From a virus: DNA of 64,000 nt. A program made the position numbers and the translations under genes. Below, one piece after another: positions 2 to 49,446 of this stretch (position 1 is the stretch's first letter; the number at the start of each line of letters is the position of its first letter). The notes under the pieces were generated by a model. The model was not told where the DNA came from and ran no database searches. It was given only the letters and a program-made list of their open reading frames with translations. The stretch covers positions 1 through 64,000 of IMG/VR virus record IMGVR_UViG_3300034198_023063; one strand, 5' to 3'.

Positions 2-3000
2 AATACTAGATATCAACCACTAGCTTCTTTCTTGCCATTTGGAATGAGATTCGAAGAGGGGGATGAAATTTCTAAAATGATTGGTTTAGCCAAAGGTTAT
101 GTCCCTAATTTTGCAAGAGAAAAAATAATCGCTGCCGCATTTAAAACCAAAAAAGGTAATATTTTTACTGGCTCATATCATGGCGCAGCATATGAAAAAA
201 TTCCAGAAGGAGAAAATATTGATCTTATAGATGGATTTGTCACTAATTCTGGAAAATTTGTAGACAGAAAAGAAGCTGGTTTAATAGCTCAATCCGCTCA
301 TCAATTATATAATAATGGAAACAATAGGAAAGCATTTGCATCGAATAACTATAAATTAGACACAGCGTTTTTGCCTCTTCCTCAAGAAAAATATCGTAGC
401 CGTGGATATATTCCTAATTTCTCTGGGCTATCTCAATCTATATCTAGAGAAAAACAAATGACAGGCTTGCCAGTCTCTCAGATAATGGCTCATTTTGATG
501 GCAAAGGAAATCCAATTGCTGTAACAAATAAAAGAGATGAGCCAAATGGCCTAAAAGATGTGCCGAATTTTGCCCCGCCAAGAGGAGGAGGTAGAGGTGG
601 AGCTAGAGGTGGTAAGGGGTCATCATTAACTCCTGAAAGGGCTATTATTTTAACTCAGGTATTAAATGTAATAGCTGGAGCGGTAGAAGCTGGAGTTAAT
701 GTAGCTGCTCAAAATGAATCTATTTCCCCCGAAACAGCAAGAACTGTTAGTTTCGCTGTGGCTGGTATTAATGCTTTGATTGGGATATCTGCTGGCCTTA
801 AGTCTGTCGGAGGATTTAAAAAAGCTACTGGTCTTCAACGAACTGCTGCCATAGGTTTGCCATTAGTAGCGGCGGCGGCAACTGCTGGAGTTGGGTATCT
901 TGGGTCTGAATCTTTAAAGAAAAACATTTCTCAACAAAAAATCCAAAGAGAATCCGAAAGGGTAGCTCAACAATTTTCGGATCTAACAAATAGTACTCAA
1001 GAACTTAGTGACACTTTGTCTAAATTGGATGCTGCTTATAAAGATGTGTCCACAAATCCAGACGAGTTGCTTAAATTAACAAAAAAATCTACAGAACTTA
1101 CAACTAAGATTTCTAAAACAAACCCTCAGTTGTCAGCTAAATTAGCTGCTGAACCAAATCTTGGTCGTCGCATAGACTTAATACAAGAAAGTAATAAAGA
1201 AGCGACAAGCCAACAAACAGTAGACCAAGAAATCTTAAAACTCAGAAGCCAAGGAAAAGTTTCTAATAAAGAATTAGAATCTTCTTTTAATCGTTTGATA
1301 GGTGGAGTTGGAGAAGATATTTTTAAAACTAAAGAAGGGTCTGTCACAGAAGCTAATTTGCCAGAATTTTTAAAAAAGAATAAATTAGAAAATTTATCTA
1401 AGTTTTTTGACGAGCAAGATAAAGAAGTACAATCCAAATTAAGACCAGCTTTTACTAAAGCTCTTAACAGCCAATTAAAATTAAATAACGAAGCTGAAAA
1501 ATATAATAAAGAAGTAATTAGAATTCAAGGAGACCTATTTAAATCTAGAAAAAAGGTCCAAACAGAAAAAGAGCTTAGAGATATAAATTTAGCAGGAAAA
1601 ATTTCTAACATAGAATCGTTACAAGATTTTGCTCAAAATTTTGGATCGAGGGCTGCTATTTCAGCTAAGGTTGACGCATATAAAACTATTGAAGGATTGA
1701 AGCCGACTAATCAATTTAAACAGGCTATAAATACACAACTCAGAAATGGAAATTTTTCACCTGAAATAACTAGAAAATTATCTTCTATAGAAGGCCCCGG
1801 AGATGTAGCAAAAAAACAATTAGAAGAGATAGCTGCTACTAAAAATTTAACCGAAGAACAAAAAGAGGGTATTAAAAAATTAATAACTCAAAATCAAACT
1901 TCTACTGATGAATTAAAAAAGATCTCTGATATTTCAGAAATAAATAAAAATAATCAATTAAGATTATTAACGATTCAAGAAAAATTGGGTTTTGGTGGAG
2001 GAATTAAAACATCTATAGACGCCAAATCAAGAGTAGAATCTATCAATGCGCCACTCAGAGGAGCTTTAGAATATCAAATTGGAGCGCAATTAGGTTCTCC
2101 AAGATCAATGATAGCTGGCCAAACAAATTTCTTAAAATCTATCCAAGGGCTATATCCCGGCTTAATAGATAAAACTGGAGGGTTAGCTATGGCTTCTCAA
2201 CGTTTATCTGCTTTGAGAATGGGTGACCTTCAGCTTGATTTGATGAAAAATGCTGCCACTGCCGGAAGAATGGGAATGCCTGATGTAGCTGCCGAGTTAA
2301 TGAAGAAGGCTTTCGATCCAAAAGCTTTGGCGGAAATAGCAAAAACTCAAACTGAAACTGAACTTCAAACTGGAAAAACGCCAACTGAAATTTCTAATGA
2401 ATTAAAATCTGCATTTGATTATTTTTCACAATCATTAAATGAAACATTCAAAGGAGAGGCAGAAATAAGACAAAAAGAGAAAGACGTAGCTCAACCTTTA
2501 GAAACAGTCACTAAAACATTTGAAAATTTTCAAAGTGATTTAACTAAGAAAATAGAAGCAGCATTTCAAGAAGCATTTGGAAAAAATGGGGTAGAATTTA
2601 AAAACTCTACAATTGAAGCCCCAAATGCTACGGTTAATGTTTCATCTGCGGCTCCAGCACAATCAGCGTCGAGTGGCGCACAACAGGCGGAAGCTAATAA
2701 AGCGAGCATGGGTGGTTTTAGTAAAGGATTTATTCCTAGTTTTTATAACCCCCTAAGGGAGGCAATACAACGAGAAAATAAATACGTTCCATTTAATTCT
2801 ATAAGAGTAAATAAGAGTGATAAATTAATAAATCCAAACAATCCTTTTGGATTAGCAGTTACAAATACTTTTGATGAACCTAACGGTTTAGCTAGTATAG
2901 GTTTAGCTTCTGGAGGTTTTGTTCCAAATTTCGCAGCATTTGGTTCTAGGGCCGCCTCTGAAGCGAGAAACAACGCTAGGCTTGGAAAACTATATGTTTG

Positions 3001-6000
3001 GGATAATATAGACAATGGCTTTAGAAAAGTTAATCCAAGCGGAACAGTTGACGCTAATTTAATAGATCCAAAAGATTTACCAAAAGGAGCCAGAACAATA
3101 TCAACTGAGCTTTCTCAAGGAGGAGGAAAAAAATCAATAATTCCATTAAAAGATCCAAAAGTTACTAAGCTTGATGAATTAAGTCTTCCGGGCATAGCAA
3201 GATCTCAACCTATAGATAAAATTCTTTCTAGATTAGACAGGCAGGGAAGATTAACCCCTAAGAATTTATTAACAGAAATTAATAAAGTTTCTGGAGGAAA
3301 AGATGTTGTTGTTAAAACAGGTTTCGGAGAGTCTAATGTTCAAAGTAAAGGTGTTTATGGATTAGGCGGAAAATTATCTACCGCTGATGCAAGATCTATT
3401 ATCGGGAAATACACTAGAGGAACTGGCAGTGGCTTTTTTACTCAAGAAAAAGTTCCAACATATTACAATGAATTAAGAGTCCATGTCGCAGTAGACGACA
3501 AAGGAAATATAAAAATAATAAAAGGAGGAACAATTTTAAAGGCAACAGGATTTGATCCCTCTGCTGGTCCTTCTGTAAAAGCTTATACAGACGCAGGTCT
3601 TTCTAAGAATGAAGCTATTAAAATGTCTAAATCTTTTAGAAGATCTGCTGAAGCTTCAGCTTTTGACGCTATAAGAACTTTAGTAAAAACTAAAGGAGTA
3701 AAAAATGCATTCTTTGGAGTAGACGTAGGTGGAACCACTTTGCAATCAGCTTTAGATGCTGGTGTTAAAACTAGAGAATTTTATTCTGGGGGAAGAGGCA
3801 GAGTCGGCACTATTGTATTTGAAGTAAATCCTAGCGATAAAACTGGATCTACCGGATTTATGGGCAGAGGTTTATCTGAAAAATTAGTAAAAAATATTTT
3901 TGGTCAAAAACCTGCTCCTTCAGGATTAACAACAGGTTCACCTGCGATAGGAATTAATCCGACAGGAAATCCAACGTATCCTCCGATAATAAGACCATCG
4001 CTATCTCCTTCTGGGGCTCCATTAGCTTCAGGTCTTCCCGCTGGATTTAGCGCTAAACCAAGTTTAGCCTCTTCTATTATAAATACTGTTAAAAATCAAG
4101 CTACGTTAACAAAAAATTCATTAGTAGCGGGATTCCAAAATATGGCTGGTAAAGCTGGTACTTTTGCAACTAATTTACCAAATATAGGTAGTGGATTAGG
4201 CTCTAAATTTTCAGGATTGGTTAGTGGAGCGAAAGGTTTAGCTGGAAGCGCAGGTTCTAATTTAATGTCGTTTGGAAGAAATGCCTTAGGAAAAGCTGGC
4301 ACTGGCCTTACAATAGCTGGTTCTTTAGGTTTAGGCGAAGAAGCTTATGAGGCTTTAAAGCGCGGAGAGTTTGGAAATGCCGCTGTTTATGGTGGAGCTT
4401 CTGTAGGTTTAGGTATTGGAGCGTTAAATAATATTTTTGGAAAGCAACCTATTTTTAATTCTAGAGCTGGTAGATATGTAGATCCTACAACTGGTAGATT
4501 TACGAGCGCTCCAAAAACTGGTTTATTTGGAAAATTTGCTGGAGGAGCATCTGGAATAGCATCAGCATTACTAAGTGGCGCTCAAACGGTTGAAGAAATA
4601 AAAAATAAAAAATATGGTAATGCGGCTGTTTCTGGCGCTCAGACAGCTCTTTATATCGCTTCTGCTTTATCCAAAAAAGCTACTGGAGCTTTTGGTATAG
4701 CTTCTGGTTTAGGTTTAGCTAAAGACATAGCGAACGCAAAAAATTTCGAGTTAGCTTCTGATTGGTCAGATGTTTTATTTGGCAAAGCAGAGCAAGGCGG
4801 AGGAATTGCTGATTTGGTTGGTACTGCTTTAACCGCTGCTTCTGGTCCAATTGGCGCTGGTGTCGCTACAGCTAAAATTGGATATAGAATTGGTAATGTA
4901 ATAGAAAATAAGCTGGGTTTAGGAGACAAACTTGGAAATGTTATGGCTGGCAGCGAAGCTGCCACAAGAGCCGAATTCGCTTCTCTTGGCATGGCCAAAT
5001 CCATCGCTAAGAAAGACGTTATAGAAGGAAAACAATCTGCATCTAAATATATAGAATCAAAGAGAAGAGATTTAGAAGAGTTAAGCAAAACTGGAGCTTT
5101 TAAAGGAGATGTTATTGACACCTTAAATAAAGATTTAGATCAAATAGCCAGTAAAAGAAAAGAAAGAGAAAAAGCCATCGAAGAGAAATCTAGAACTGAC
5201 GCTATAATCGCTAAAAGAGCTGAAGAAACTAAAGCGAGAGAAGCTGGCTTCAAAGCTGAAGATGAAAAACGAAAAGAAGATCAAAATAAATTTGACGCTT
5301 CTTTAAGGGGAAAAATAGTAGATGGCGTAATTAGAAACGAAGAGCTTTCTGGATTACAAACATCTAGGGATAAAGCTTTATACATAATTGAGCAAGAAAA
5401 GAGATTTGGTAAATTTTCTGAAGCTGATTTTGGTGAAAATAAAGGTTTGTACGATTCTTACAAAAACTACTCCAAAGAGTCGCAAAACATTAAAAAGAAA
5501 GAAGATAAATTCAATGCCGAACTAATGAATCCAGAAGCTGCTGGAGGAGTGGCTTATAGAACACAACCTTTTAGAGAAGAGCAGCAAAGAAAAGTCGAAG
5601 AGCTGGCTTCTTTTCCAAAAGATGCTTTTGAAGAAGCAGCAAGAAGAAGAATGACTGTTGAAGACGTAATGGAAGAAAGGAAGAAGGGCGCGACAAAGAA
5701 TAAATTCAACGGATTCATTCCAAACTTCGCTTATCGCAGAGAGAGGTCTAGTGTATTAACAAGCCCAGATTATGTTGGGTATAGAAATGCTATTCCAGAA
5801 CCTTCTAAATACTATAAAAATGTAGTTAAGAATACCGCTGAAATAGAAGTGCCTGCTGTTGAGGTTTACAATAGAATGGGTCTTTTTGGAGCACAACCTA
5901 AGAATGCTTCTGAAAAATATGCTATTTTGAATCCAGCGCAACAAGCCCAATTAGGTTATGCTGCTAATGGATTTATTCCAAACTTTGCGCCAGAACAATT

Positions 6001-6208
6001 TGCTGGAGCAATAAGCGAGGCTTTGCAACAAGCCTTATCTCCAATGTTTGAGAAAATGGGGTCTTCAGTATCTAATTCTAACGTTATCAATGTTCATGAC
6101 CAAAGATCTTTTGATGTGACATCGGATAAAGTAAATGGAGTAATGGAATTCTTACAAAAACAATTCCCGACACAATTTGCAAGACAAATGGGTCCAAATA
6201 AAGTATAA
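2..6208 (+). CDS. Tape-measure-like polyprotein, 5'-truncated (>2060 aa), with repeated GFxPNFA motifs and embedded cargo domains
   Basis: The frame is open from base 2 (NTRYQPLASFLPFGM...), so the TTG at 32 is probably not the true start. Long coiled-coil (Q/E/K-rich) tracts, Gly/Ala-rich hydrophobic segments and a TMP-like C-terminus (SNSNVINVHDQRSFDV). Lies directly upstream of hub/baseplate-like genes. Confidence 0.75.
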   Translation, partial: NTRYQPLASFLPFGMRFEEGDEISKMIGLAKGYVPNFAREKIIAAAFKTKKGNIFTGSYHGAAYEKIPEGENIDLIDGFVTNSGKFVDRKEAGLIAQSAHQLYNNGNNRKAFASNNYKLDTAFLPLPQEKYRSRGYIPNFSGLSQSISREKQMTGLPVSQIMAHFDGKGNPIAVTNKRDEPNGLKDVPNFAPPRGGGRGGARGGKGSSLTPERAIILTQVLNVIAGAVEAGVNVAAQNESISPETARTVSFAVAGINALIGISAGLKSVGGFKKATGLQRTAAIGLPLVAAAATAGVGYLGSESLKKNISQQKIQRESERVAQQFSDLTNSTQELSDTLSKLDAAYKDVSTNPDELLKLTKKSTELTTKISKTNPQLSAKLAAEPNLGRRIDLIQESNKEATSQQTVDQEILKLRSQGKVSNKELESSFNRLIGGVGEDIFKTKEGSVTEANLPEFLKKNKLENLSKFFDEQDKEVQSKLRPAFTKALNSQLKLNNEAEKYNKEVIRIQGDLFKSRKKVQTEKELRDINLAGKISNIESLQDFAQNFGSRAAISAKVDAYKTIEGLKPTNQFKQAINTQLRNGNFSPEITRKLSSIEGPGDVAKKQLEEIAATKNLTEEQKEGIKKLITQNQTSTDELKKISDISEINKNNQLRLLTIQEKLGFGGGIKTSIDAKSRVESINAPLRGALEYQIGAQLGSPRSMIAGQTNFLKSIQGLYPGLIDKTGGLAMASQRLSALRMGDLQLDLMKNAATAGRMGMPDVAAELMKKAFDPKALAEIAKTQTETELQTGKTPTEISNELKSAFDYFSQSLNETFKGEAEIRQKEKDVAQPLETVTKTFENFQSDLTKKIEAAFQEAFGKNGVEFKNSTIEAPNATVNVSSAAPAQSASSGAQQAEANKASMGGFSKGFIPSFYNPLREAIQRENKYVPFNSIRVNKSDKLINPNNPFGLAVTNTFDEPNGLASIGLASGGFVPNFAAFGSRAASEARNNARLGKLYVWDNIDNGFRKVNPSGTVDANLIDPKDLPKGARTISTELSQGGGKKSIIPLKDPKVTKLDELSLPGIARSQPIDKILSRLDRQGRLTPKNLLTEINKVSGGKDVVVKTGFGESNVQSKGVYGLGGKLSTADARSIIGKYTRGTGSGFFTQEKVPTYYNELRVHVAVDDKGNIKIIKGGTILKATGFDPSAGPSVKAYTDAGLSKNEAIKMSKSFRRSAEASAFDAIRTLVKTKGVKNAFFGVDVGGTTLQSALDAGVKTREFYSGGRGRVGTIVFEVNPSDKTGSTGFMGRGLSEKLVKNIFGQKPAPSGLTTGSPAIGINPTGNPTYPPIIRPSLSPSGAPLASGLPAGFSAKPSLASSIINTVKNQATLTKNSLVAGFQNMAGKAGTFATNLPNIGSGLGSKFSGLVSGAKGLAGSAGSNLMSFGRNALGKAGTGLTIAGSLGLGEEAYEALKRGEFGNAAVYGGASVGLGIGALNNIFGKQPIFNSRAGRYVDPTTGRFTSAPKTGLFGKFAGGASGIASALLSGAQTVEEIKNKKYGNAAVSGAQTALYIASALSKKATGAFGIASGLGLAKDIANAKNFELASDWSDVLFGKAEQGGGIADLVGTALTAASGPIGAGVATAKIGYRIGNVIENKLGLGDKLGNVMAGSEAATRAEFASLGMAKSIAKKDVIEGKQSASKYIESKRRDLEELSKTGAFKGDVIDTLNKDLDQIASKRKEREKAIEEKSRTDAIIAKRAEETKAREAGFKAEDEKRKEDQNKFDASLRGKIVDGVIRNEELSGLQTSRDKALYIIEQEKRFGKFSEADFGENKGLYDSYKNYSKESQNIKKKEDKFNAELMNPEAAGGVAYRTQPFREEQQRKVEELASFPKDAFEEAARRRMTVEDVMEERKKGATKNKFNGFIPNFAYRRERSSVLTSPDYVGYRNAIPEPSKYYKNVVKNTAEIEVPAVEVYNRMGLFGAQPKNASEKYAILNPAQQAQLGYAANGFIPNFAPEQFAGAISEALQQALSPMFEKMGSSVSNSNVINVHDQRSFDVTSDKVNGVMEFLQKQFPTQFARQMGPNKV
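95..5989 (+). repeat. Seven dispersed peptide motifs G(F/Y)(I/V)P(N/S)F(A/S/Y) in the tape measure protein
   Basis: GYVPNFA 95-115, GYIPNFS 404-424, DVPNFA 557-574, GFIPSFY 2726-2746, GFVPNFA 2915-2935, GFIPNFA 5711-5731, GFIPNFA 5969-5989. Synonymous codons differ, so conservation is at the protein level. Confidence 0.9.
3150..3870 (+). other. ATP-grasp (RimK-like) ligase domain embedded in the tape measure protein
   Basis: ATP-grasp motifs in the correct order: VVVKTGFGES..SKGV (~3305), FFTQEKV (~3434), ELRVHV (~3470), FFGVDV (~3710), IVFEVNPS (~3812). Confidence 0.7.
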
Positions 6209-14700: not shown

Positions 14701-15231
14701 TACGTTTTAGGTGGACTGGAAAGTCTTAATGATGTTATTAAAATAATAGAAAATCCTAATTTTTCAGTAGACGTAACTACAAGCAATCTAACGCCAAATG
14801 TAAGAGAGCTTTATGGGGATGAAACAACGCCGCAATATGTTTCTGCGCCAGTTTCAGTGGGAAATCCAAGCAGTTATCCTGTATTTATTGAGTATCAAGG
14901 CTACGAAGGAACAAATCCAAAATATCAATTTAGAACTTTAAGTGAATTTCATAATAGTCTGAAAGCTTATTATGATTCAAAAAATATATCTTTATCACAG
15001 CCAAATATAAAATTTTCTGCTGATATTTTTTGCAGTAGCATTCCTTCTCAATTAAAAGATCTACTAACGGTGCAGAATGGATTGACGAAATTAAATATAA
15101 ATTTAGCCGAGAATGGGCTTTCTATAAATTGTTCTTTTGAGAGTTCTCCAACTTTAGCTTTGAGCCAAGAATCTTTAATATTAAAAAATAGACCAAATAT
15201 TAAATTAGTAAATCCAAATTTCTTCAAATAA
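11725..15231 (+). CDS. Probable baseplate hub / Tal-like central tail protein (1168 aa)
   Basis: Hub-like N-terminus (LFNGYIYNMSLDVGYDGQPTVLTLNL; LTLVLKDNSFVLD; GTLRQVLNQWCDDYGYSYCVD) and C-terminal strand pair (GLTKLNINLAENGLSINCSFES). Located in the tail module. Confidence 0.55.
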   Translation: MAAVNKNSIINITRRIGTTVENLYNKLFNGYIYNMSLDVGYDGQPTVLTLNLALNRTIDQVKVNSDVIKDRKKDITYFKNLIAAQKSVPQNSVGNLGSVPAGSQIGPKDNISQISDKDFNIDQNYIGVTCSYDIGIYDGLGNPTYSFKSFKIVSFSISKKNDQKILTLVLKDNSFVLDKVYVGLLGNQVAIDGRSESLAYVSGIKISCPPVGSNCPAGLVTLNNQPQYLHFSNSKFKNSYQSHLGTIDLNANAGNVGSDRRVSLINFQVGDDSSQNKKHNFVTISSIDPNKSIFKGYGAAIILGEEEFKDSPCGSAEVYYSFETLIAAMKKLGIVIAENNRPANLTNTSANYDSLQDKSRGKIKKNYQGTLRQVLNQWCDDYGYSYCVDYTKTSDTSFVLKGIDKTSGFSKELILQTKLTMEDLESSTSNSDFVIRSEDFSYDLSQQQLKLFSSYYSKDAKDKTLNYKTLFGNEAFNNIRLDELYPDIFGNRTDKKDFSGSYRTYEDVVISAILGKYSSRLREIYNYSIGAYGALGFIPFNGIPNSSQIPLLAADASFSFIESISSVLDYQSENFFASDGTPLYDLTLGFYNEELAQNVLAMESFIADFLGRYYWTPELEMLDGESGNTDFYAKYEVGSSVPVQKIMAGQLYQLDVFKKARYLLNSIASVFSGNNDNYFKAYYQLADLAANAQSICSQVGQDFINLQGSQAKLKKFRFFYERSGATYGVIQDFLEDVLKLKYTIAGSTTASAQEIDVATIFAPVFKELSPVSLGLLQAAMPINISNVAIGSFKFGVLLGLKPAYQVYNISSQNARNILEIQNSIYNRCSEILKINTTGVKDKLIRNKRSCSKTLLYEVCVRSCEDSGRKSSNDNAVSFASGPNPYFCFAVKITRDLRSPAVDSMVLQNVYKTVISSNTPLSLDGFTDKPSQILVTSLRLKAEKGLTNISYDIFSKTASYQPQWELIVAPSQENYSIPLYTETTTETFLPARNYVLGGLESLNDVIKIIENPNFSVDVTTSNLTPNVRELYGDETTPQYVSAPVSVGNPSSYPVFIEYQGYEGTNPKYQFRTLSEFHNSLKAYYDSKNISLSQPNIKFSADIFCSSIPSQLKDLLTVQNGLTKLNINLAENGLSINCSFESSPTLALSQESLILKNRPNIKLVNPNFFK

Positions 15232-16898
15232 TGACTATTACTGGAAACATTTTTAGAAGCTTAGTGAAAAATAATGCTTTTTCAGCTTTATTTGATTTAT
15301 CGTTTTCTAATGTTACGGGCGTTGCTGAAATTGGATTTAGTGGGCAAAATAAAAAATATAATTTTTCATTCATTAGCGGAAAAATTTTTGATAATGAAAA
15401 TAGATATTTTTCTTCTTACAGTCCATTATCTCAAGTTTTATTATCTACAAATTTTTCAGGAAAGTCTTACGATTATGCTATCAATTCAAATATAGTAACA
15501 TACTCTGGAAGCAAGCAAGATTTTTATGCAGAAAATTTTTATGCTAATACAACTGGAGTGGATGTGGGCGCTTCTATAATTATCAGAGCTAAAAAGCCAA
15601 CATTGACGCTATCGCTGCCATCTTCTTTTATTACAGGCCAAACTATAACTGGATATTTGCAAACTAATTCTGCTAGCGGTATAAAAGTGTTTACTGGAGA
15701 TTTTGGTGAGTTGTCGTCTTTTTCATTTTTGAGTTTTCCTGCTGGAGATATAACGTCTGTTGCGAGCGGACAAGTTTTAATATCTCAAAAAAATATTGAA
15801 ATAGGAAATTTTACAACAGATATTAATTTGGAGACAAATGCTGGGAATTATTCCCAAAACGTTTCGATATCGTCTGTAGAAAAGCCTTTTCTTGATTATG
15901 TTTTAACTTCAAATATTGATGAAAATTCTTTTGCTTATTTAGCTCAAAATGGCGAAACAACTGGTGTGGCTAAAGAAAATATAGCTACAGTAAATTATAA
16001 TTATTATACTAACTACCCAAATTTAGAGCAGTCTAGTTTACCACTATCTATTTCTTTATCTTATGTTTCTGGGATAACGGGTTATTATGGATTGGTAGCA
16101 GATGTGACGCTTTCAAGCGGCGGCAATGGTTACTTAGCTGCTCCGACAGTAATATTTAGCGGTGGATTAACGGGGCAATTAGCGCAAGGCGAGTTGCTAT
16201 CTGTTGTAGGGGATTATTTTATAAAATCTTCTTTTACAAGATTTGAATTTCCATCTGGCGAACCAATCAGATTTTGGAAAAAGGGATCTAATATTTTGCC
16301 TTCCCCGTTGCAAGAAAACTTTACATATTATGTAACAAGCGTATTCTCTGGGGGATTTGGTCAACCACAAGGAGGATTTCAAATTTCTACTACTTTAGGT
16401 GGGTCAGCTTTAGATGTTACTTCGACTGGAAGCGGAAATTTTTATTATTATAGTTTGAATCAATTACCTTCGGCTCAGGCGGTATTAGGTCAAACAAGAT
16501 CTCTTTATGATCAGGTTGTTGATGTAAATATATTAAATTATGGATCTGGATACACATCTTCTCCAACTGTAATTTTTTCTGGAGGAACTGGAATAATTAA
16601 TAATGCTACGCCAACAATAGCTTCTGGATCTGCTGCAATGGTGTATTATACTAAATCTTTTACTGGATGTTTTAATTTATATACTGGATTAGCTGGAAAT
16701 TATATTAATTATAAAGCTAATAATTATATCTTAAATAATAATTATTCTGGATCAGCATCTTATACTCAATACAATAATCCTATAAATATAAAAGTATCTT
16801 ATACGCCATTTTTAGACTCTAACCAATTGGTAGCAAAGCTTTTAATAAGCGGAGCTAATAACTTAAAAATTGAACAATACATAACAGGAGTAAAATAA
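15231..16898 (+). CDS. Virion/baseplate protein with two GxGY...PTVIFSGG repeats (555 aa)
   Basis: VADVTLSSGGNGYLAAPTVIFSGG and VVDVNILNYGSGYTSSPTVIFSGG flank an inserted PSPLQENFTYYV...FQISTTLGGSALDVTSTGSG module. Both motifs are common in myovirus structural proteins. Confidence 0.65.
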   Translation: MTITGNIFRSLVKNNAFSALFDLSFSNVTGVAEIGFSGQNKKYNFSFISGKIFDNENRYFSSYSPLSQVLLSTNFSGKSYDYAINSNIVTYSGSKQDFYAENFYANTTGVDVGASIIIRAKKPTLTLSLPSSFITGQTITGYLQTNSASGIKVFTGDFGELSSFSFLSFPAGDITSVASGQVLISQKNIEIGNFTTDINLETNAGNYSQNVSISSVEKPFLDYVLTSNIDENSFAYLAQNGETTGVAKENIATVNYNYYTNYPNLEQSSLPLSISLSYVSGITGYYGLVADVTLSSGGNGYLAAPTVIFSGGLTGQLAQGELLSVVGDYFIKSSFTRFEFPSGEPIRFWKKGSNILPSPLQENFTYYVTSVFSGGFGQPQGGFQISTTLGGSALDVTSTGSGNFYYYSLNQLPSAQAVLGQTRSLYDQVVDVNILNYGSGYTSSPTVIFSGGTGIINNATPTIASGSAAMVYYTKSFTGCFNLYTGLAGNYINYKANNYILNNNYSGSASYTQYNNPINIKVSYTPFLDSNQLVAKLLISGANNLKIEQYITGVK

Positions 16899-20704: not shown

Positions 20705-23700
20705 ATGAGCGCATTAAATGATAATAAGGCTTTTTTAAGTGGGGTATTAACTGGAGAATCATTAAATTTTGATACTTCAGTTTTTGGTCTTTGGGTTTCT
20801 ATATTTCAAAATGTTAATTATAGTGAAAATGGTTACTCTTACTTTCAGCCGTTAGCGACAGACATTACCGCTATAGATTTTCCTATTACTGGTAAAAGAT
20901 TTTCTTTATTTAATTTTGATGGAAAGTATTCTGATGCAAGATTTATAATATCCTCAGGTAAAAAGGGAGATGCTGAATATGATACTACTGTTCCTATAGC
21001 GGATATTTCAAATTCTTTTGTATCAGGTTTTAAGCCATTAATTATAATGCCAAATGTTGATTTCACGGGCAGCATTTATAGAAGAACTGAAATCACTGGA
21101 TATAGAAATTCTGTAATTGGAAATTATCAAACCCTTGGTCTTTCTGGGGAAGATTGGCAAAAAACATCTATACCAGTAAATGTTAGCGATGACGTTAAAG
21201 AATACGCTTATTTTGATACTGGATACTCTGGTTACTCAAACGAAGTCGCTACAAGATATAAATTTTTATATGATGATCCGTCACACTCGCAAAGACAAAA
21301 CGTATCGATATTTGAAATACCAATTCAATATGAAGCTGGATCAAATTTTAAATATAAAATATCTAGAAAAAGCGATCCATTTGGAGAATTTTATACCCCA
21401 GAAATAACTACTGATGGCAAAATAATTATTGATTACTCTCAATATAAAGATGAAGTAAATAAGCCAGTGGAAGCTGGATTAAATTATAAATTTACTACAG
21501 TTTCTAAATTTTCTTTCCCACAAGGCGTTTTTGAAGATTTAGACGATAATCAAGTTGTCACTAGGCCGATTAATGATTCTTCTATAACTGGACTGAAATT
21601 AACCAGAAGAAAGGAAGGGGATGATACTTATTATGATTTTTATTTGTCATCAACTGGCGTTAATAATACTGGAGCTACTTATGATGGTATTTATAGAATA
21701 ACATTTAATGTAGATAGATATAACACAACAAATAAAACAGGAATAGTTGGTTATGTGATGACCGGCATCAAAACTGGAGACGTATCAACAAATGTTTTAG
21801 TTAATTTAGGAATAAATTCTGGAGTCTACCCTAGGGTCATAGATACTCAAAGATATCAAACTTCAGACATATTAAATTTAGCAAATTTAGAAGAGCTTAT
21901 TGTTAATGAGGAGTCGGCGCAGGCTTTAGCTTCTGATACTGATTTTGAAAACGAAACTAATTTAGCAAAAAATTTACAAGATAATATAAAGAAAAATGTA
22001 GATTTTTTAAACGAATTGCTAAAAGATGAGCCACAAAACCCAACGCAAAATACAACATCAGATCAAGTTTTAAGAGGCCAAATTGATTCTCTTGAAAATT
22101 CTAATTTAGATTCTGCAAATCAAAATCAAATTATAGAAAAAATTGCTCTTCCAAAATTTACGTTACCAAAACAAAATGTAGATAAAAATTATTATAATAA
22201 TTATATAAATTCTGGAGAAGAGTATGTCGCGGTTCCTTTGGCTAATTACACTCTTCAGCCAAGTTATGTTTTTTATGGAGATCAATATGGACAACTAGGA
22301 TACTATATAGAAGAAACTGAATATTCAACATATAGAATAGTTGTTAATTCCACCAGCAATGGAGTTTACGTTTCAAATACTTCGGTTTGCAAAGGAGACA
22401 CTGCTATATATGCAAATATGCCATACTCAGAAGATGTATATTTTGAAAATGGTATTTGCACAAGAATTCCAGAAGATGGAATAATAGATAAAAATAATTA
22501 CGCAACACAAGATAGCTGGAAGAATGCTGTTAATTATTTTTACACAAAAAATTATTTATCTTCAGTAGATGTTTTTCCTACTAGTTCAGATCAAGATGCA
22601 AATTTATCTATATCAAACGCAATATCTAAAGCTTTGCAGCAAATAGGTTCTTGCACGGGAGATTTTCTAACAGAAAACTCAAATGCAAAACCAATATTAT
22701 ATTTGGAAAGAGAAGTTTACGTTGAGCCATACGATAAAGATCAAATAACTCTGCTAAACAATACTTTAAATTCGGGGTCTTTCGTATCTCCAAGTGGAGA
22801 ATTAGTGAGGCAACAAGAAGAAAAGCTTTATTGCGTACAAATTTTTGATACGTCATTTGCTAAAGATAATAGTTCATTTTTCAAGGCAGCTAATGATTAT
22901 GAAGAAAGTTTAACTTTTAAATCCTTTGCTCCTTATAAAGATTCTGCTGGAAAAGATATCGTGAGTTATGGTGTCGGAGAAAATTTTGGTACAGTATATT
23001 ATAATGATCAAAATAAAGATGAGCAAGATATTTATAGATTAGAGTATGTAACTGGACAAGCCTTCTCTTATAATAAAACTTCTAATTTTAGAGCTTGGAA
23101 TGGATTAGGAAGTCAAACAATATCAATATCAAATCAAAACGATAAGAATTATGGCTACCACTTGTATGGATATGAAAACGCAGATGATGTTTTAACTTTT
23201 GTAAAATCTAACATTTTAAATGGGGTAGATGTTTCACCAACATCTTTTACAAACTATGTTGTATTAAAATTTAATAAACAAGGATTTACCGATAGCAGTT
23301 ATATTTTTAATGACTCTAATGGAACTAATTATACAGCAATAAATACTTCAGTGGTTGATTCTTCTGGAGCTTTGTTATCATCAAGTTATGTGTTTTTTAA
23401 TATACAAAAATATTCATACTTGGCAAGAGCGGTAACAGAAAATAATGTTTGGTATACCAACAAGTTGATTCCAATAAATGATGATTCATATGGCGCTGAA
23501 GATCAGTTTGGATTATTTGCTCCTAGATTTTTTGAAGACGCAACACAGGAAGCAAAGTCTGCGGCAGAACAACTTTTTGTGTTTCCAAATGGGCCTTCGA
23601 CTTCCAAAAATTACGAAGGATCTCCGTTAGTTTACGATCATCTTCCTAGCATACCTCAAGGAGTATTAAATAATAAATTAGTCATAACAGAAGAAAGAAA

Positions 23701-26700
23701 AAATTATAATATAATAAATAATGATTTCATATTAAATTTTGTTTTGGAGGGAAGGCTTACAAAAGAACTGGGCCTTAATAATGTTAAAAATTATAAAGAT
23801 TCTAGAAGACTTAAAATAACAAGAGTAAGATACAATGTATATTCTAAAAATTTATTGATTGTTGGTGACGCTGGTTTTCCATATGCATTAGCATTAAATA
23901 CAGGTTGGGAATACAAACTTCAATACAGGAAAAAAGGAGTAGGTTCAGCTTGGAAAGAGATGGATTCTACCTCATCTTTTACAAATAGTAAAATTGCAAA
24001 TGTAAGTTCATTTCTGAATCCATATTTTTATAAATTTGAAGATTTGATAACGCCGAACTATCTTCCAACTGTTGGGTTTTTGACTAATTTACCAAATTTC
24101 TTAGATGATAGCCAATATCAATTTAGAATTTTTAAATACGAAAAATTTGATTCTGGTTCAGATTCGGTTGATATAATAAGAAAAACAAACTTTTTGCCAA
24201 TACAAGTAAATTGGGCGAATGATAACAAATCTTCTTATTTTAATATTTACCAATTAGATAGCGGCAATAATTTAAAACTAATAAAAACAGAAAACCAAAA
24301 AAGTTCTTCTACGTTTGCTATTCCAAGCGTTAAACAGCAATATTTTGATTTGGGATTGGCTAATTTTTCCAAAAATGGATCAGGATATTATGATATAATA
24401 GTTTCTGGCGCTTTGCCATCTACTCAAGTTAATACTGGATTAGCGGGTTCTGTATTTATAGGAAATCCAACTATAGGAAATTCCACCGCAGATCCAAGTG
24501 ATCAAAATGATCCATCTGGACCAATAATAATAGATGTAATTAATCAAACATCTAATACAAGCGGTTATAATTCAATAACTGGAGTGACATATGCTCCTCT
24601 TATAAATTTTAATAATCCAGAATCTAAAAATGCAGATTTTAGTATTAACGCAAATTATAGTGGTTATTATTTTATATCCGATGGTAAAAATGCTACCTTA
24701 GATAACTCTTTAGTTAATGGTTTTGAGTGCTATGTTGCAAATACTGGATCATCAACCAATATTTATTCTAATGGCTCAGCTTATTCTTTAAATAATAATA
24801 AGGTAGCAAAAGTGATTTTGCCTTCAGTAACAACTACGGACTCAATCCGAGCTTTACCATCAGCGCAAGTAAGCGTTGATTATACTAATAATTATGTTTA
24901 TATAAAAGAAAATTTTAATTATAACACAGGAGATTTTGAAGCTAGCGCTGGGACAAAAAGTTCAATTTCTACAATTATAAATGGATCAAGTTCTTCTGTC
25001 ACATTAACTTATGGGACTGGAACGATATCAATTCCAGCTAATACGAGTTATAAACTGCAATTCGATAATGGTTGGGATGGGTCTGCATTCGCCTCTCAGA
25101 TTCTTCAATTAAATTCTTATAAAAATGTAGATACTCAAGCTTCTTATATAAATTCTTCTGGTGGTTTAGTTAATTTAAATTATGATTCTTTAATATTAAA
25201 TACCCAAGACTATATTGATTTACCAATTTATAATTTTGCAAAAAATAAACTATCTGTAAATGGATTAATAAATTTAAATGCAGATTCATTTTATCTTTTG
25301 AGTGGAAATCCGGCTGGAACAATAACGGCGACTGAAAAAGATTATTTTGATTCTATAAAAATATACTTAGATGGAAGCGAGGGGGAAAATAATATTTTTG
25401 TATTAAAAGATGATACTGATATAGATGTGTCTTATTTCCAGTTTGGCAATCGAAAAGAGTATTATTTTATAAAAGACAACAATATACAAAGATCTTTAAA
25501 TATAAAAATCAAAAATGGAACCTCGGAGAAATTAATTCCAAAAGGATCACCAGATTTTAAATTAACTGTTAAAAAAGATACGTTTTCTAATATAACTTAT
25601 GAGATTTTATTTCCATCTTCAGATTTTACTACATTAATCGGAGACGAACTTGAGCAATTAATAGTAATAAAATCTCAAAATAGTCATATTATTGATTTGG
25701 GATATATAGAGGGCTCGCTAAAATCTAATGCTTTTGTTTATTTTGTTAACTCTTCAAATACAAACGTAGATTTTCAAAGAGATTTCAAGAGCGTCATGAC
25801 TTTATCAAATGGCGAAATCGCTAAAGTAACTCTAGAAAAATACAATCTAACAGCAAGAATTACAAAAATAAATGAAGCAAGAAATCATTTTGAATTTAAA
25901 ATAGATCCGCAAATTCATTTAACAGAACCTTCTGGGGTCAATATTTTGAATTTAAATTTTTGTGGCGCTGATGTTGTTCTGCCGCCTCCTTCTGATTTTT
26001 CAGCTAAAGAAACTTTTATAATTTCTAAAAATAGATTAGCAGCAAATAAAATAGATTACAAAAAAATAGAAAACACTCCCAGCACAGCCATATCTTCTGA
26101 AGGAAAATTCTCACAAAATAGCATTGTATGTAAAATTTATAAAAATTCATCTTCTAGTACATACCCTGCCGTAGATCAGTCAGAAATATCTGCTGGCTAT
26201 TATTCCCCTTTCAGAGAAAGAAATACTCCAAAAGATGATGTTTATGAAGTTTTCTATATTAAAGATGCTGATTTAAAGTCTTTTTCTATAAAAGATTATT
26301 TCGAAAGATCAGCATATTATTATGGGAAAGTTTTGTTGGAGTCTGAAAAGGAGTTTTCTATTTATTCTTATGATGAAAATAATAGCAATACACAAAATGT
26401 AGAAAAAAAGGGGGTTAGTTTTGATTTTGATTTCGATTTGGGTGAAGTCATAGATGGCGCACTAACTACAAAGCTGGTTGAAAACGATTACCAAATAATT
26501 AATTCTAATAGCGAAGACGACGGTGTTCAGACTTTAGATAATTTTTCAGTTGGTCAATATTGCATAAATTTCGCTTATGATAGCGTAGCTCTTACTGGTC
26601 AGAGCGTATCTTTGATTAAAAATAGAGGAGCTTTTATAAACGAAAATCAAGGGTTGAGGGTTTTCCCAATTTATAATGAAGATGAGTTTTTTATTGCAGA

Positions 26701-41686: not shown

Positions 41687-41715
41687 ATGATGCTCTTTTT
41701 ACTCTAGATTGTCAA
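41687..41715 (-). promoter_or_regulatory. Sigma70-type promoter TTGACA-N17-CATCAT, 7 nt before the ATG (leaderless)
   Basis: -35 at 41715-41710, -10 at 41692-41687, ATG at 41679. Confidence 0.75.
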
Positions 41716-45691: not shown

Positions 45692-46654
45692 TCAAAAAGT
45701 TGGATCATCTTTGCGCCAAAATGGGCAACCTTTATAAGATGTTTTATTTATCAAAACAATATTCGAATCATTAAAAAGATCGTCTCTGTTAAAAGATGAT
45801 TTAATAAATTTATCATTCTTATCGTAACCCATATAATAAGTAGCTGGAAGTCTGGATGGACAAATCCATTTTCCCTCTACGTCACTTCCACACATCCATT
45901 TCTTTTTTGGAGTACTCGCAGCTAAATTTTGAACAGCTCTTTTTTCATCAAAAGATGATATGTATCCAGCGACGTAACTAAGATAAGCCTTGAAACCCTC
46001 TAATTGCTCTACGGTTGGTTTTGGGGCTTCTTGAATTGGCTGTTTTTTAAATTTAAGAAAAATAAATGAGACATCTGGAATATGGCCTTTAGTTTTAAAT
46101 ACAGCTAAAGAATACATCAAGTTTTGTAGGTTAAAGTCAATCTCTTCTTTAGAAAACTTACCTTTGCTTGATTTGTAGTCGTAAATTTTATAGTTTGTAT
46201 CGCTAAATTTTGCAAGCTTGTCAATAAATCCATTGATAATATAATCTTCCTCTTCAAGTTTAAACTCTGATTCAGCTTCAACAAGCAAAGCTCCACTACA
46301 GAAAAAGTCGCTTTGAAGACCTGTTTGGATCATATTATAAATAAGATCTAAATTTTCTTCGTCATTTACTTTGAGCTTTTTAGCGTGTTTTAGAATAAGT
46401 CTATGGATAGATGGATTTTTTATAACTCCAGCTTTGCCAGAGCATAGATCTTCAAAATATTTTTTATGCCTATCAGTAAGGAGTAGCTCAAATATTAAAT
46501 GGCAAATTGTCCCCCTTGAAGCTCCAGCGTTAGAAATATCTGGAAGTTTAAGAATATATTTAGTATAGTAAAGCCAGCTACACCCTTCGGCGGTTTTTAT
46601 TTTACTAGCGCTTAGTTTTACTTTTTCTTTATTAATTAAAGTGTCTTGTGCCAT
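45692..46654 (-). CDS. PD-(D/E)XK exonuclease, Cas4/RecB/AddB-like, with four Cys (320 aa)
   Basis: LSASKI..C, GTICH, E, GFIDKL, IYDYKSSK and QNLMY motifs; additional Cys in WMC, WICP and GCP. Confidence 0.85.
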   Translation of the reverse strand: MAQDTLINKEKVKLSASKIKTAEGCSWLYYTKYILKLPDISNAGASRGTICHLIFELLLTDRHKKYFEDLCSGKAGVIKNPSIHRLILKHAKKLKVNDEENLDLIYNMIQTGLQSDFFCSGALLVEAESEFKLEEEDYIINGFIDKLAKFSDTNYKIYDYKSSKGKFSKEEIDFNLQNLMYSLAVFKTKGHIPDVSFIFLKFKKQPIQEAPKPTVEQLEGFKAYLSYVAGYISSFDEKRAVQNLAASTPKKKWMCGSDVEGKWICPSRLPATYYMGYDKNDKFIKSSFNRDDLFNDSNIVLINKTSYKGCPFWRKDDPTF

Positions 46655-49029: not shown

Positions 49030-49446
49030 TTATAATATTATATTAAATTTCTCAAGGAAAAACTTTTCATTTAAAGAATCAACTTCATTGTCGTAGATCT
49101 CAACAAGAATAAATTTATTCAATGTGAGCCAGTTTTCCTTGGCGACATCTCGCTTAATTGATTTTAAATAATTTAAACGAGAATCGTTATGAAAAAACTT
49201 ATTGTAAGCAGAGTGCTGTGGGCCGTGGACCTCAACAGCAATCTTGCGAGTTGCGTTCAAAATGTCAACTTTTAATCGACTTCCAAACACAGGAAACTCC
49301 TCGTAGACAATATGGTTTTGCCAATATTTTCTAAGGAACTGCTTGGTTTTAAATTGTATTTTAGATCTGGAGGCGGCGTCCCAGTCTATAGTATATTGAG
49401 ATACATTTTTGCTTACAACCTTGCCAAAAGCATTATAGAGCTTCAT
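49030..49446 (-). CDS. Vsr/DUF559-like endonuclease (138 aa)
   Basis: EEFPV...LKVDI...IAVEVHGPQH...RDVAKENW...LVEI pattern. Confidence 0.7.
   Translation of the reverse strand: MKLYNAFGKVVSKNVSQYTIDWDAASRSKIQFKTKQFLRKYWQNHIVYEEFPVFGSRLKVDILNATRKIAVEVHGPQHSAYNKFFHNDSRLNYLKSIKRDVAKENWLTLNKFILVEIYDNEVDSLNEKFFLEKFNIIL

What the first reader, a model, noticed from the sequence alone, without database searches (positions are those of the whole stretch)
95..5989. Tape measure protein punctuated by seven GFxPNFA motifs: a candidate processed, cargo-delivering polyprotein
Seen: seven G(F/Y)(I/V)P(N/S)F(A/S/Y)-type motifs with different codons. They fall at boundaries between unrelated blocks: a small globular domain (116-403), an RGG + hydrophobic + coiled-coil block (575-2725), a block with the ATP-grasp domain and Gly-rich membrane-like segments (2936-5710), and the TMP C-terminus. 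Established: tape measure proteins are ejected into the host, are often proteolytically processed, and some carry enzymatic domains; multi-domain 'polyvalent' phage proteins deliver effectors. Inference: PNF/A is a recognition or cleavage site, or a linker that lets cargo domains be swapped, making the TMP a modular effector-delivery system.
Basis: partly seen in the sequence, partly recalled or inferred. Interest (0 to 1): 0.85.

Follow-up and report, generated by a model that had tools for sequence, protein, structure and literature searches.

The report
Tape measure protein with motif-fenced swappable modules
The tail "ruler" protein of this uncultured large phage carries optional protein modules, here a small T4-type domain and an ATP-dependent ligase, each fenced by one short conserved peptide at which related phages gain, lose and swap modules; so the tail probably carries ready-made proteins into the host, but neither delivery nor cutting at the peptide has been shown.

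Summary
ORF 2..6208 (+) holds seven [GK][FYD][IV]P[NS]F[ASY] motifs. About 0.04 are expected by chance, and no other real gene of the contig has one. The ORF is the C-terminal 2068 aa of a roughly 3000-3500 aa TP901-type tape measure protein (TMP), cut by the contig end.

All 52 homologues carry 2-13 motifs. Cutting them at the motifs gives a fixed backbone plus cassettes that vary in presence and order.

In this gene the similarity breakpoints fall on the motifs:
- One relative has an extra 78-aa cassette exactly after motif 1.
- DNA identity drops from 99% to 90% to undetectable at motifs 1 and 3.
- Homology to other relatives stops at the end of motif 5.

The synonymous sites of the motif vary, so selection acts on the peptide.

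The two cargo modules here are a T4_Y16D domain (116-403) and a true ATP-grasp fold (2936-4000; Z 12.4; the Lys, Asp and ExN positions are invariant), which only 29 of 52 homologues have.

Cleavage at PNF|A is untested. The four protease families I looked for were not found, and the motif occurs only in the TMP.

The scan has reported the same motif arrays (at least 8 notes) and ATP-grasp domains inside TMPs (at least 13 genomes) on other DNA. I found no published description.

The parts
2..6208 (+). C-terminal 2068 aa of a giant TP901-type tape measure protein. The 5' end is cut by the contig start; the stop codon is at 6206-6208.
   Evidence: Homologues of 2000-3600 aa carry PF10145 at the N-terminus.
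2..94 (+). C-terminal tail of an upstream cassette (cluster 12, 242-278 aa in relatives).
   Evidence: 82% identical to P0004 aa 1544-1581. 99% DNA identity to L004/L010.
95..115 (+). Motif 1, GYVPNFA.
   Evidence: A relative has an extra 78-aa cassette plus one motif exactly here, and the crossover lies inside the motif codons.
116..403 (+). Cassette: T4_Y16D-type small domain (PF26092), 96 aa.
   Evidence: Precomputed PF26092. Atlas nearest clusters are 97-100% T4_Y16D, 226 of 256 features shared. Absent from P0004 at this place. Sits elsewhere in the array in P0009, P0017 and P0018.
404..424 (+). Motif 2, GYIPNFS.
   Evidence: 33 internal alignment ends pile up at aa 126-141. The L008 DNA match starts at nt 404.
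425..553 (+). Small conserved backbone unit (cluster 0, copy A): helix plus hairpin, flanked by motifs on both sides.
   Evidence: Cluster 0 has 76 copies in 48 homologues. Many invariant columns. The AF2 model is only pLDDT about 60.
554..574 (+). Motif 3, variant KDVPNFA.
   Evidence: DNA similarity to L004 and L008 ends at nt 573.
575..2725 (+). Backbone block 2: RGG stretch (aa 193-205), three hydrophobic helices (aa 214-302, nt 641-907), then about 600 aa rich in charged residues.
   Evidence: Hydropathy and composition. Cluster 2 is present in 45 homologues.
2726..2746 (+). Motif 4, variant GFIPSFY.
   Evidence: The variant is conserved at this position in relatives. The L006 DNA match starts at nt 2726.
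2747..2914 (+). Small conserved backbone unit (cluster 0, copy B).
2915..2935 (+). Motif 5, GFVPNFA.
   Evidence: Homology to P0021 and P0037 stops at aa 978. 14 alignment ends fall at aa 978. Coil outside the fold in the AF2 model.
2936..4000 (+). Optional cassette: ATP-grasp ligase-type domain (aa 979-1333).
   Evidence: AF2 pLDDT 82, pTM 0.81. All top Foldseek hits are ATP-grasp enzymes. VIA Z 12.4 to TTLL11, 11.7 to DcsG, 11.6 to PurD, over model residues 22-342. Invariant K1105, E1157, R1159, D1241, E1274 and N1276 in 24 sequences. Present in 29 of 52 homologues.
4034..4051 (+). Possible degenerate closing motif LPAGFS (aa 1345-1350).
   Evidence: [LM]PxGF[AS] follows the ATP-grasp domain in 7 of 12 homologues examined besides the window protein (P0004, P0009, P0016, P0017, P0018, P0022 shown). 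Distant TMPs P0054 and P0055 have GVPGF[AS] before it. Weak: noted, not tested statistically.
4052..5710 (+). Rest of backbone block 4: Pro/Ser linker, Gly/Ala-rich region (aa about 1400-1700), then a highly charged region (aa about 1700-1900).
   Evidence: Composition. The equivalent region of P0052 gives a sub-threshold Gly-zipper_Omp hit.
5711..5731 (+). Motif 6, GFIPNFA.
   Evidence: Alignment ends at aa 1903-1904.
5732..5968 (+). Small backbone unit (cluster 6, 79 aa). Relatives have either this or a 30-aa alternative (cluster 7).
5969..5989 (+). Motif 7, GFIPNFA.
5990..6205 (+). Conserved C-terminal end of the TMP (cluster 1, 72 aa).
   Evidence: Present in 48 homologues.

Best explanation
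This is the C-terminal two thirds of a giant tail tape measure protein, built as a fixed backbone with optional modules spliced in.

The backbone consists of the N-terminal PhageMin_Tail region (missing here), three membrane helices, a long charged ruler, a Gly/Ala-rich region and the C-terminal end. The optional modules here are a T4_Y16D domain and an apparently active ATP-grasp ligase. Every module and every backbone block ends in the nine-residue peptide [SA]xG[FY][IV]PNFA.

Shown:
- The peptide marks the points where related phages insert, delete, reorder and exchange modules.
- The crossover of at least one such event lies inside the motif codons.
- The peptide itself, not its DNA, is what selection keeps.

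Inferred:
- Because tape measure proteins are expelled into the cell envelope at infection, the modules enter the host as ready-made proteins.
- The peptide is a protein-level signal between modules. Its most likely role is a processing site cut after Phe (P1 aromatic, P1' small), which would free the modules and split the backbone. I put cleavage at about 40% and an uncleaved docking or hinge role at about 30%.
For: - Motif count against chance.
- TMP identity.
- Backbone plus variable cassette array: seen in 52 homologues. The short forms have no cassettes, and cassette 13 sits first or last in the array depending on the phage.
- Breakpoints in this gene. aa 39-134 is an insertion relative to P0004. 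Homology to P0021 and P0037 ends at aa 978. Homology to P0003 starts at aa 126.
- Mosaic identity. aa 1-125 are 96-100% identical to P0021/P0025 (100% in four of the five 25-aa bins); after aa 200 identity is about 30%.
- DNA evidence. Window nt 1-114 is 99% identical to L004/L010 and nt 95-573 is 90% identical; nothing is detectable after nt 573. The 78-aa indel is bounded by two motif copies.
- Family-wide: 26% of 8218 internal alignment ends lie within 5 aa of a motif, against 3.5% for random positions.
- Conservation runs from -5 to +4 and collapses after the Ala. Synonymous codons vary.
- The motif is coil outside the ATP-grasp fold.
- Cargo character of the modules. The ATP-grasp fold has an invariant catalytic set and is far better conserved than its flanks (75-100% in most 28-aa bins against 13-35% upstream and 30-78% downstream, versus P0004). 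T4_Y16D is otherwise a stand-alone phage protein family. Relatives carry ART-PolyVal and DUF7178.
- Precedent for an enzyme in a TMP acting in the host: P23-45 gp96 (PMC10770324).
Against: - There is no direct evidence of cleavage or delivery.
- No peptidase of families S77, S78, ClpP or MPTase-PolyVal was found in this contig or in the complete relative.
- The motif is absent from every other gene, so it is not a general virion protease site.
- It is never followed directly by a TAA or TAG stop in a real gene in 2.9 million viral contigs. Natural split forms that would show the modules work as separate chains were therefore not found.
- P23-45 gp96 is proposed to act uncleaved.
- A folded 40-kDa domain in three copies does not obviously fit a tail tube lumen (established knowledge), so how it is stored is unexplained.
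- The alignment-end statistics count related sequences many times over.
Confidence: 0.55

Rival explanations
1. The peptide is not cut. It is a short docking or hinge element that binds the tail assembly chaperone or the inner wall of the tail tube (or sets the register of the TMP trimer) at the end of every module. This would keep bulky or unfolded modules orderly during tail assembly, and the modules would act while tethered to the TMP channel, as proposed for P23-45 gp96.
For: - No protease was found.
- The motif is exclusive to the TMP.
- The backbone itself keeps five motifs even in relatives with no cassettes, so the peptide has a job unrelated to cargo release.
- The hydrophobic-aromatic core with Pro looks like a typical short linear binding motif (inference).
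- gp96 is thought to work uncleaved.
Against: - Conservation is one-sided and ends sharply after a small residue, which resembles polyprotein cleavage sites more than docking motifs.
- No partner has been identified.
- The genes upstream of the TMP in the relative have no recognisable family.
Confidence: 0.3
2. The motif is only the end of a small repeated backbone domain (the 40-80 aa units of clusters 0, 5, 6, 7 and 16). Cassettes simply landed between copies of that repeat, so the peptide has no signalling role of its own.
For: Three motif pairs in this protein flank small, mutually similar units (aa 142-184, 916-971, 1911-1989). These share an RE[KN]...NP.G.AVTN..DEP.GL pattern.
Against: - Unrelated cassettes (T4_Y16D, cluster 12, the 78-aa cassette in L010, DUF7178, ART-PolyVal modules) also end in the motif without the small unit.
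- Over 286 distinct instances, conservation is confined to positions -5 to +4.
Confidence: 0.1
3. The motif matters only as DNA: a short repeat that promotes recombination between cassettes, with no function for the encoded peptide.
For: The indel junction lies inside the motif codons, and DNA similarity blocks start and stop at motif edges.
Against: Synonymous positions differ freely among the seven copies while the amino acids are kept. The residues are 92-100% conserved (two of them were required by the search pattern) over 286 distinct instances in proteins only 26-45% identical overall. A DNA signal would show the opposite pattern.
Confidence: 0.05

Closest known systems
Polyvalent proteins of phages and conjugative elements (Iyer, Burroughs, Anand, de Souza, Aravind 2017, PMC5512222)
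   Same: Giant virion-associated proteins that string together unrelated effector domains in highly mosaic combinations, thought to be delivered with the DNA. A relative of this TMP carries their ART-PolyVal domain.
   Different: - Those proteins are head-packaged or MuF/portal-associated, and are proposed to be cut by their own MPTase or other peptidase domain.
- That paper never mentions tape measure proteins.
- No MPTase was found here.
- Here the carrier is the TMP, and every module is fenced by one conserved peptide, which that work does not describe.
Thermus phage P23-45 gp96, a 5,002-aa TMP whose N-terminal part is a virion RNA polymerase (PMC10770324)
   Same: A giant TMP with a working enzyme fused to membrane and ruler parts. 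The enzyme acts in the host right after ejection.
   Different: It has one fixed enzyme, no cassette array and no delimiting motif, and it is proposed to act uncleaved at the TMP pore. There is no sequence relation to this protein (not among the hits).
TMPs processed or carrying lytic domains: T5 pb2, lambda gpH to gpH* (own knowledge, not checked here), and enterococcal-phage TMPs with lytic transglycosylase (PMC10194240, title and highlights only)
   Same: They establish that TMPs are ejected, can be proteolytically processed and can carry enzymes.
   Different: They have a single C-terminal or internal cell-wall enzyme. They have no exchangeable array, no shared boundary peptide and no cytoplasm-type enzymes such as an ATP-grasp ligase.
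Sle1-type TMP-related effectors of actinobacterial contractile injection systems (PMC13277306)
   Same: A TMP-derived carrier with a swappable functional domain, shown experimentally to be packaged, ejected and reprogrammable (abstract).
   Different: They belong to a phage-tail-like nanomachine, not a phage. Each carries one C-terminal functional domain, and the abstract reports no repeated delimiting peptide.
ATP-grasp protein- and peptide-modifying ligases: TTL/TTLL, LysX/ArgX, RimK, DcsG, Ddl; R2K ligases of jumbo phages (PMC7824862)
   Same: The same three-subdomain fold (Z 11-12.4) and the conserved Lys / Asp / Glu-x-Asn positions. Jumbo phages are already predicted to use ATP-grasp peptide ligases on host proteins.
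   Different: - No Pfam ATP-grasp model matches, even at E 0.1.
- phmmer against 1.8 billion representative proteins finds it only inside giant TMPs.
- The substrate is unknown.

Membership tests
TP901-type tail tape measure protein (Pfam PF10145 PhageMin_Tail) | PhageMin_Tail domain in the N-terminal part | tested here: inconclusive
   The window protein lacks its N-terminus because the contig ends there, and Pfam gives no hit on it. Full-length homologues matching 57-94% of it at 36-74% identity have the domain at E 1e-26 to 1e-28.
TP901-type tail tape measure protein (Pfam PF10145 PhageMin_Tail) | Very long, hydrophobic helices plus a long helical/charged ruler, encoded just upstream of the large distal-tail genes | tested here: met
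   Three hydrophobic segments at aa 214-302 and charged blocks. It is followed by a co-oriented string of large ORFs at 6214-37108. The gene order is the same in relative L002.
Polyvalent proteins (Iyer et al. 2017) | Several unrelated effector or enzyme domains in one giant virion protein, with mosaic combinations among relatives | tested here: met
   T4_Y16D and ATP-grasp here. ART-PolyVal and DUF7178 in relatives. Variable cassette order.
Polyvalent proteins (Iyer et al. 2017) | An own processing peptidase (MPTase or similar) in the protein or genome | tested here: not met
   PF18818 MPTase-PolyVal is absent from this contig and from the complete 174.5-kb relative. No peptidase family was found in the TMPs scanned.
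ATP-grasp superfamily | Three-subdomain ATP-grasp fold | tested here: met
   AF2 pLDDT 82. All 25 Foldseek hits at E <= 1e-3 are ATP-grasp enzymes. VIA Z 10.7-12.4 over residues 22-342.
ATP-grasp superfamily | Conserved ATP-binding Lys and the Mg ligands Asp and Glu-x-Asn | tested here: met
   K1105, D1241, E1274 and N1276 are invariant in 24 aligned sequences. Their assignment to these roles rests on their order and sequence context, not on a residue-level structural superposition.
ATP-grasp superfamily | Match to a curated sequence model (RimK, Dala_Dala_lig_C, ATP-grasp_3 and others) | tested here: not met
   No Pfam family at E <= 0.1. Only language-model feature similarity to viral RimK / Ddl / TTL / R2K clusters, score 0.92.
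T4_Y16D (PF26092) | Match to the family model | tested here: inconclusive
   A precomputed PF26092 hit is listed for this protein (P0002), and the atlas clusters are 97-100% T4_Y16D with 226 of 256 shared features. However, the local Pfam copy lacks the model, the word-index search found no stand-alone relatives, and the fold model failed.
Viral-type polyprotein with dedicated cleavage sites | Cleavage at the repeated site | not testable with these tools
   This needs proteomics or expression. The only indirect evidence is one-sided conservation ending at a small residue.
Viral-type polyprotein with dedicated cleavage sites | A cognate protease encoded by the virus | tested here: inconclusive
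   S77, S78, ClpP and MPTase were not found. Most structural genes of these phages match no family at all, and the S77 control also found nothing in any of the control genomes.

The most novel reading that the evidence does not exclude
The nine-residue peptide is a dedicated release code. After ejection, or during tail assembly, a still unknown protease (from the phage or the host) cuts after ...PNF. The tape measure protein would then be a natural plug-and-play injector that delivers a changeable set of free, ready-made proteins (ligases, ADP-ribosyltransferases, small T4-type early proteins) ahead of the DNA. New cargo would be added simply by recombination at the peptide's codons.
Probability: 0.35. 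Interest if true: 0.85.

Novelty: new variant of a known kind. Interest (0 to 1): 0.68.

Why it matters
If the modules are delivered, long-tailed phages would have a second route, besides head-packaged proteins, for bringing enzymes into the cell before any phage gene is expressed.

A route whose content can be re-dealt module by module would explain how these phages keep pace with host defences.

A short portable peptide that marks where cargo can be spliced into an ejected protein would also be a practical handle for engineering phage tails or tail-like particles as protein delivery devices.

Even without cleavage, the case shows unusually cleanly, at nucleotide resolution, how domain shuffling inside one essential structural gene is channelled to fixed joints.

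Tried and rejected
- **Pfam and PHROGs on the window protein:** nothing except a weak phrog_839 hit of unknown function inside the T4_Y16D module.
- **tblastn against 50,697 GenBank phage records:** no match. Scan of 185,579 species genomes for prophage relatives: none. So there is no cultured relative and no host clue.
- **Cluster look-up of NCBI-sourced homologues:** no organism names.
- **Sequencing-run search:** only the probable source sample and a 6% share in one freshwater metagenome; no RNA holder listed. Not used as evidence.
- **The look-up of encoding contigs:** The DNA of P0021, 96-100% identical over aa 1-125, could not be fetched; L004/L010 served instead.
- **Stand-alone relatives of the T4_Y16D module by word index:** none.
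- **AF2 of aa 1-213:** pLDDT 40, unusable, so no fold search for T4_Y16D or the small unit.
- **Complex prediction, three copies of aa 128-196:** no answer, score 0.00.
- **Idea that the embedded ATP-grasp acts on the motif** (as graspetide ligases recognise leader motifs): rejected as a general mechanism, because 23 of 52 motif-bearing homologues lack the domain.
- **Asn-cyclisation self-cleavage at N|F:** made less likely. Position-specific variants have Ser (motif 4), and distant TMPs have Gly in place of Asn.
- **Motif followed by a TAA/TAG stop in viral contigs:** one hit, in a non-coding frame.
- **Peptidase families S77, S78, ClpP and MPTase:** none found.
- **Pfam on P0003, P0004 and P0021:** no further cassette families beyond PF10145.
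- **Literature searches** for a published description of the motif or of an ATP-grasp domain inside a TMP: none found in the open-access library.

Full report
**What is at the coordinates.**
The + strand frame starting at base 2 is open to base 6208 and gives 2068 residues. The window starts at base 1 of an 80,757-bp IMG/VR virus contig rated 53% complete. The gene is therefore cut at its 5' end, and the TTG at base 32 is not a real start. The rest of the window is clearly phage:
- a co-oriented run of very large ORFs with no family matches (6214-37108);
- on the other strand, DNA polymerase, DnaB-type helicase, primase, a UvsX-like recombinase and sugar-modifying enzymes.

**The motif is real.**
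Five are canonical G[FY][IV]PNF[AS]. Two are variants (KDVPNFA at 554-574, GFIPSFY at 2726-2746) that relatives conserve at the same backbone positions.

A loose pattern finds 7 copies in this ORF and only 3 in the six-frame translation of the rest of the 80.7-kb contig, all in spurious 43-93 aa frames. That gives an expectation of about 0.04 for a protein of this length.

In a complete 174.5-kb relative the pattern occurs 11 times in the TMP. Its 5 other matches are all in 14-72 aa junk frames. The motif is therefore exclusive to this one gene. Synonymous sites differ among the seven copies.

**It is a tape measure protein.**
Pfam and PHROGs say almost nothing about the window fragment. However, 52 homologues (26-74% identity) are mostly 2000-3600 aa proteins whose N-terminal 100-300 residues match PF10145 PhageMin_Tail at E 1e-17 to 1e-30. 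JGI names several of them TP901-family tape measure proteins.

The fragment has the expected three hydrophobic helices (aa 214-302), long charged stretches and a Gly/Ala-rich region. The window thus holds roughly the last two thirds of the protein.

No cultured phage and no prophage carries a relative.

**Architecture across relatives.**
Every homologue has 2-13 motifs. I cut all proteins at the motifs and clustered the pieces. This gives a fixed backbone:
- N-terminal block;
- small unit 0;
- block 2 (about 720 aa);
- small unit 0;
- block 4 or 14;
- small unit 6 or 7;
- C-terminal block 1.

Between the N-terminal block and the first unit 0 lies an array of 0-6 cassettes, which differ in presence and order between phages.

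Ten short homologues (1861-2210 aa) have no cassettes at all but keep four or five motifs.

The window protein reads 12(tail)|13|0|2|0|4|6|1.

Cassette 13 is first in the array (after the short unit 5) in P0009, P0017 and P0018, but last in P0016, P0021, P0025, P0027 and here. Other cassettes are DUF7178 (P0008) and ART-PolyVal, the ADP-ribosyltransferase of polyvalent proteins (P0052). A second insertion point lies just after motif 5 (clusters 21, 31 and 45 in relatives).

**Breakpoints fall on the motifs in this very gene.**
- Against P0004, aa 39-134 (cassette 13 plus one motif) is a clean insertion between motif 1 and motif 2.
- Against P0021 and P0037, homology stops at aa 978, the last residue of motif 5, and resumes at aa 1628.
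- Against P0003 (74% identical), homology begins at aa 126, nine residues before motif 2.
- aa 1-125 are 96-100% identical to P0021/P0025 (100% in four of the five 25-aa bins). aa 126-200 are 68-88% identical, and everything after aa 200 is about 30% identical.

At DNA level:
- Window nt 1-114 is 99% identical to contig 3300034106_004341 (L004/L010). nt 95-573 is 90% identical, and nothing is detectable after nt 573, the end of motif 3. Overall the two TMPs are only 43% identical as proteins.
- That relative has an extra 78-aa cassette ending in its own SGYIPNFA, inserted exactly after the PNFA of motif 1. Comparing the three junction sequences places the crossover inside the motif codons.
- Other DNA matches start at nt 2726 (first base of motif 4, L006), or span nt 404-573 (motif 2 start to motif 3 end, L008).

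Family-wide, 26% of 8218 internal alignment ends lie within 5 aa of a motif, against 3.5% for random positions. These ends are not independent events.

**The two cargo modules here.**
1. nt 116-403 is a 96-aa domain. It carries a precomputed PF26092 (T4_Y16D) hit, and its nearest atlas clusters are 93-105 aa stand-alone viral proteins of that family. Its function is unknown.
2. aa 979-1333 folds with confidence (pLDDT 82, pTM 0.81).
   - Every Foldseek hit at E <= 1e-3 is an ATP-grasp enzyme.
   - VIA-align gives Z 12.4 to TTLL11, 11.7 to DcsG and 11.6 to PurD, and 10.7-11.5 to TTL, Ddl, LysX/ArgX and L-amino-acid ligases, over residues 22-342.
   - K1105, E1157, R1159, D1241, E1274 and N1276 are invariant in 24 sequences.
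   - The domain is much better conserved than its flanks (75-100% in most 28-aa bins against 13-35% upstream and 30-78% downstream, versus P0004). This fits a working enzyme.
   - No Pfam model sees it. A full phmmer scan of 1.8 billion representative proteins finds it only in giant TMPs.
   - It is optional: 29 of 52 homologues have it.
   - It begins right after motif 5. In this protein and in 7 of 12 other homologues it is followed by a degenerate [LM]PxGF[AS] (here LPAGFS, aa 1345-1350). Two distant TMPs have GVPGF[AS] in front of it.

**What the peptide does.**
- Over 286 distinct instances, conservation runs [SA]-x-G-[FY]-[IV]-P-N-F-A. It falls to background immediately after the Ala (positions 0 to +4 were required by the search pattern, the flanks were not).
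- Amino acids are kept while codons drift, so the signal is read in the protein. That rules out a purely DNA-level recombination signal. The repeat does, however, serve as the joint at which cassettes recombine.
- In the one confident model the motif is coil preceding the first helix, not part of the fold.
- The one-sided pattern, with an aromatic residue followed by a small one, resembles polyprotein cleavage sites. That is why I rank cleavage after Phe first, at about 40%.
- Against cleavage:
  - none of the four protease families searched was found;
  - the motif occurs in no other protein;
  - no natural split forms were found;
  - the backbone keeps its motifs even without cargo;
  - the best-studied enzyme-bearing TMP is thought to work uncut.
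- An uncleaved docking or hinge role is therefore a serious rival, at about 30%.
- Self-cleavage by Asn cyclisation is unlikely, because Ser and Gly replace the Asn at some positions and in some lineages.
- The ATP-grasp domain cannot be the enzyme that reads the motif, since many motif-bearing TMPs lack it.

**Comparison with what is known.**
- Polyvalent proteins (PMC5512222) share the logic of many effector domains in one delivered protein. That paper does not mention tape measure proteins and relies on built-in peptidases, which were not found here.
- P23-45 gp96 (PMC10770324) shows that a TMP-fused enzyme can act in the host.
- Sle1-type effectors (PMC13277306) show that a TMP-derived carrier with an exchangeable functional domain is packaged and ejected by a tail-like machine.

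None of these has an array of modules fenced by one conserved peptide. I found no paper describing the motif or an ATP-grasp domain inside a TMP. The library holds open-access papers only.

Earlier agents of this scan reported the same motif arrays on at least eight other genomes and ATP-grasp domains in TMPs on at least thirteen. Their conclusions agree with mine. What this window adds:
- a junction at nucleotide resolution;
- the stepwise 99% / 90% / undetectable mosaic that ends on motifs;
- the exclusivity of the motif to the TMP in a complete genome;
- the negative stop-codon and protease tests.

**Verdict.**
It is a new variant of a known kind (enzyme-bearing TMPs and polyvalent proteins). 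Interest is moderately high, because the delivery and cleavage steps that would make it important remain untested.

Noticed in passing
window 20705-30502 (+), and the whole run 6214-37108: A 3265-aa ORF sits inside a co-oriented string of very large ORFs (555-1168 aa, plus one of 172 aa). None has a PHROG hit, and those scanned have no Pfam hit, apart from a weak head-closure Hc2 match at 15231-16898. The tail/baseplate module of this phage group is essentially uncharacterised.
   Followed up: partly
window 38091-64000 (-): Glycosyltransferase, nucleotide-sugar epimerase and aminotransferase genes are interleaved with the replication genes (DNA polymerase 41699-44266, helicase 47565-49028, primase 46636-47568, UvsX-like 49443-50555).
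   Followed up: no
window 1-64000: ARAGORN finds no tRNA gene in 64 kb of a phage with an estimated genome of about 150 kb.
   Followed up: no
L010 9793-10026 (= contig IMGVR_UViG_3300034106_004341; TMP aa 1345-1422): This 78-aa cassette (ESSQYVLYDT...FRSSGYIPNFA) is present in this relative and absent from the window, between otherwise 90-99% identical DNA. Its family is unknown.
   Followed up: partly
P0052 aa 877-1037 (homologous TMP, 2494 aa): This homologue carries an ART-PolyVal ADP-ribosyltransferase cassette next to DUF7178. This is a direct link between this TMP family and polyvalent proteins.
   Followed up: partly
P0054 aa 583-592 and P0055 aa 582-591 (distant TMPs, about 2150 aa): These TMPs have the same ATP-grasp domain but no canonical motif. 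GVPGF[AS] stands in front of the domain, which suggests an older or parallel form of the boundary peptide with Gly in place of Asn.
   Followed up: partly
window 425-553, 2747-2914, 5732-5968: Three small units, each flanked by motifs on both sides, precede the three large backbone blocks. They share an RE[KN]...NP.G.AVTN..DEP.GL pattern. Their fold and role are unknown (the AF2 model reached only pLDDT about 60).
   Followed up: partly
L002 130-5346 (genes upstream of the TMP in the complete 174.5-kb relative): Seven ORFs (93-374 aa) lie where tube, chaperone and sheath genes are expected. None has a PHROG match, so the tail type (contractile or not) of this phage group is not known.
   Followed up: partly
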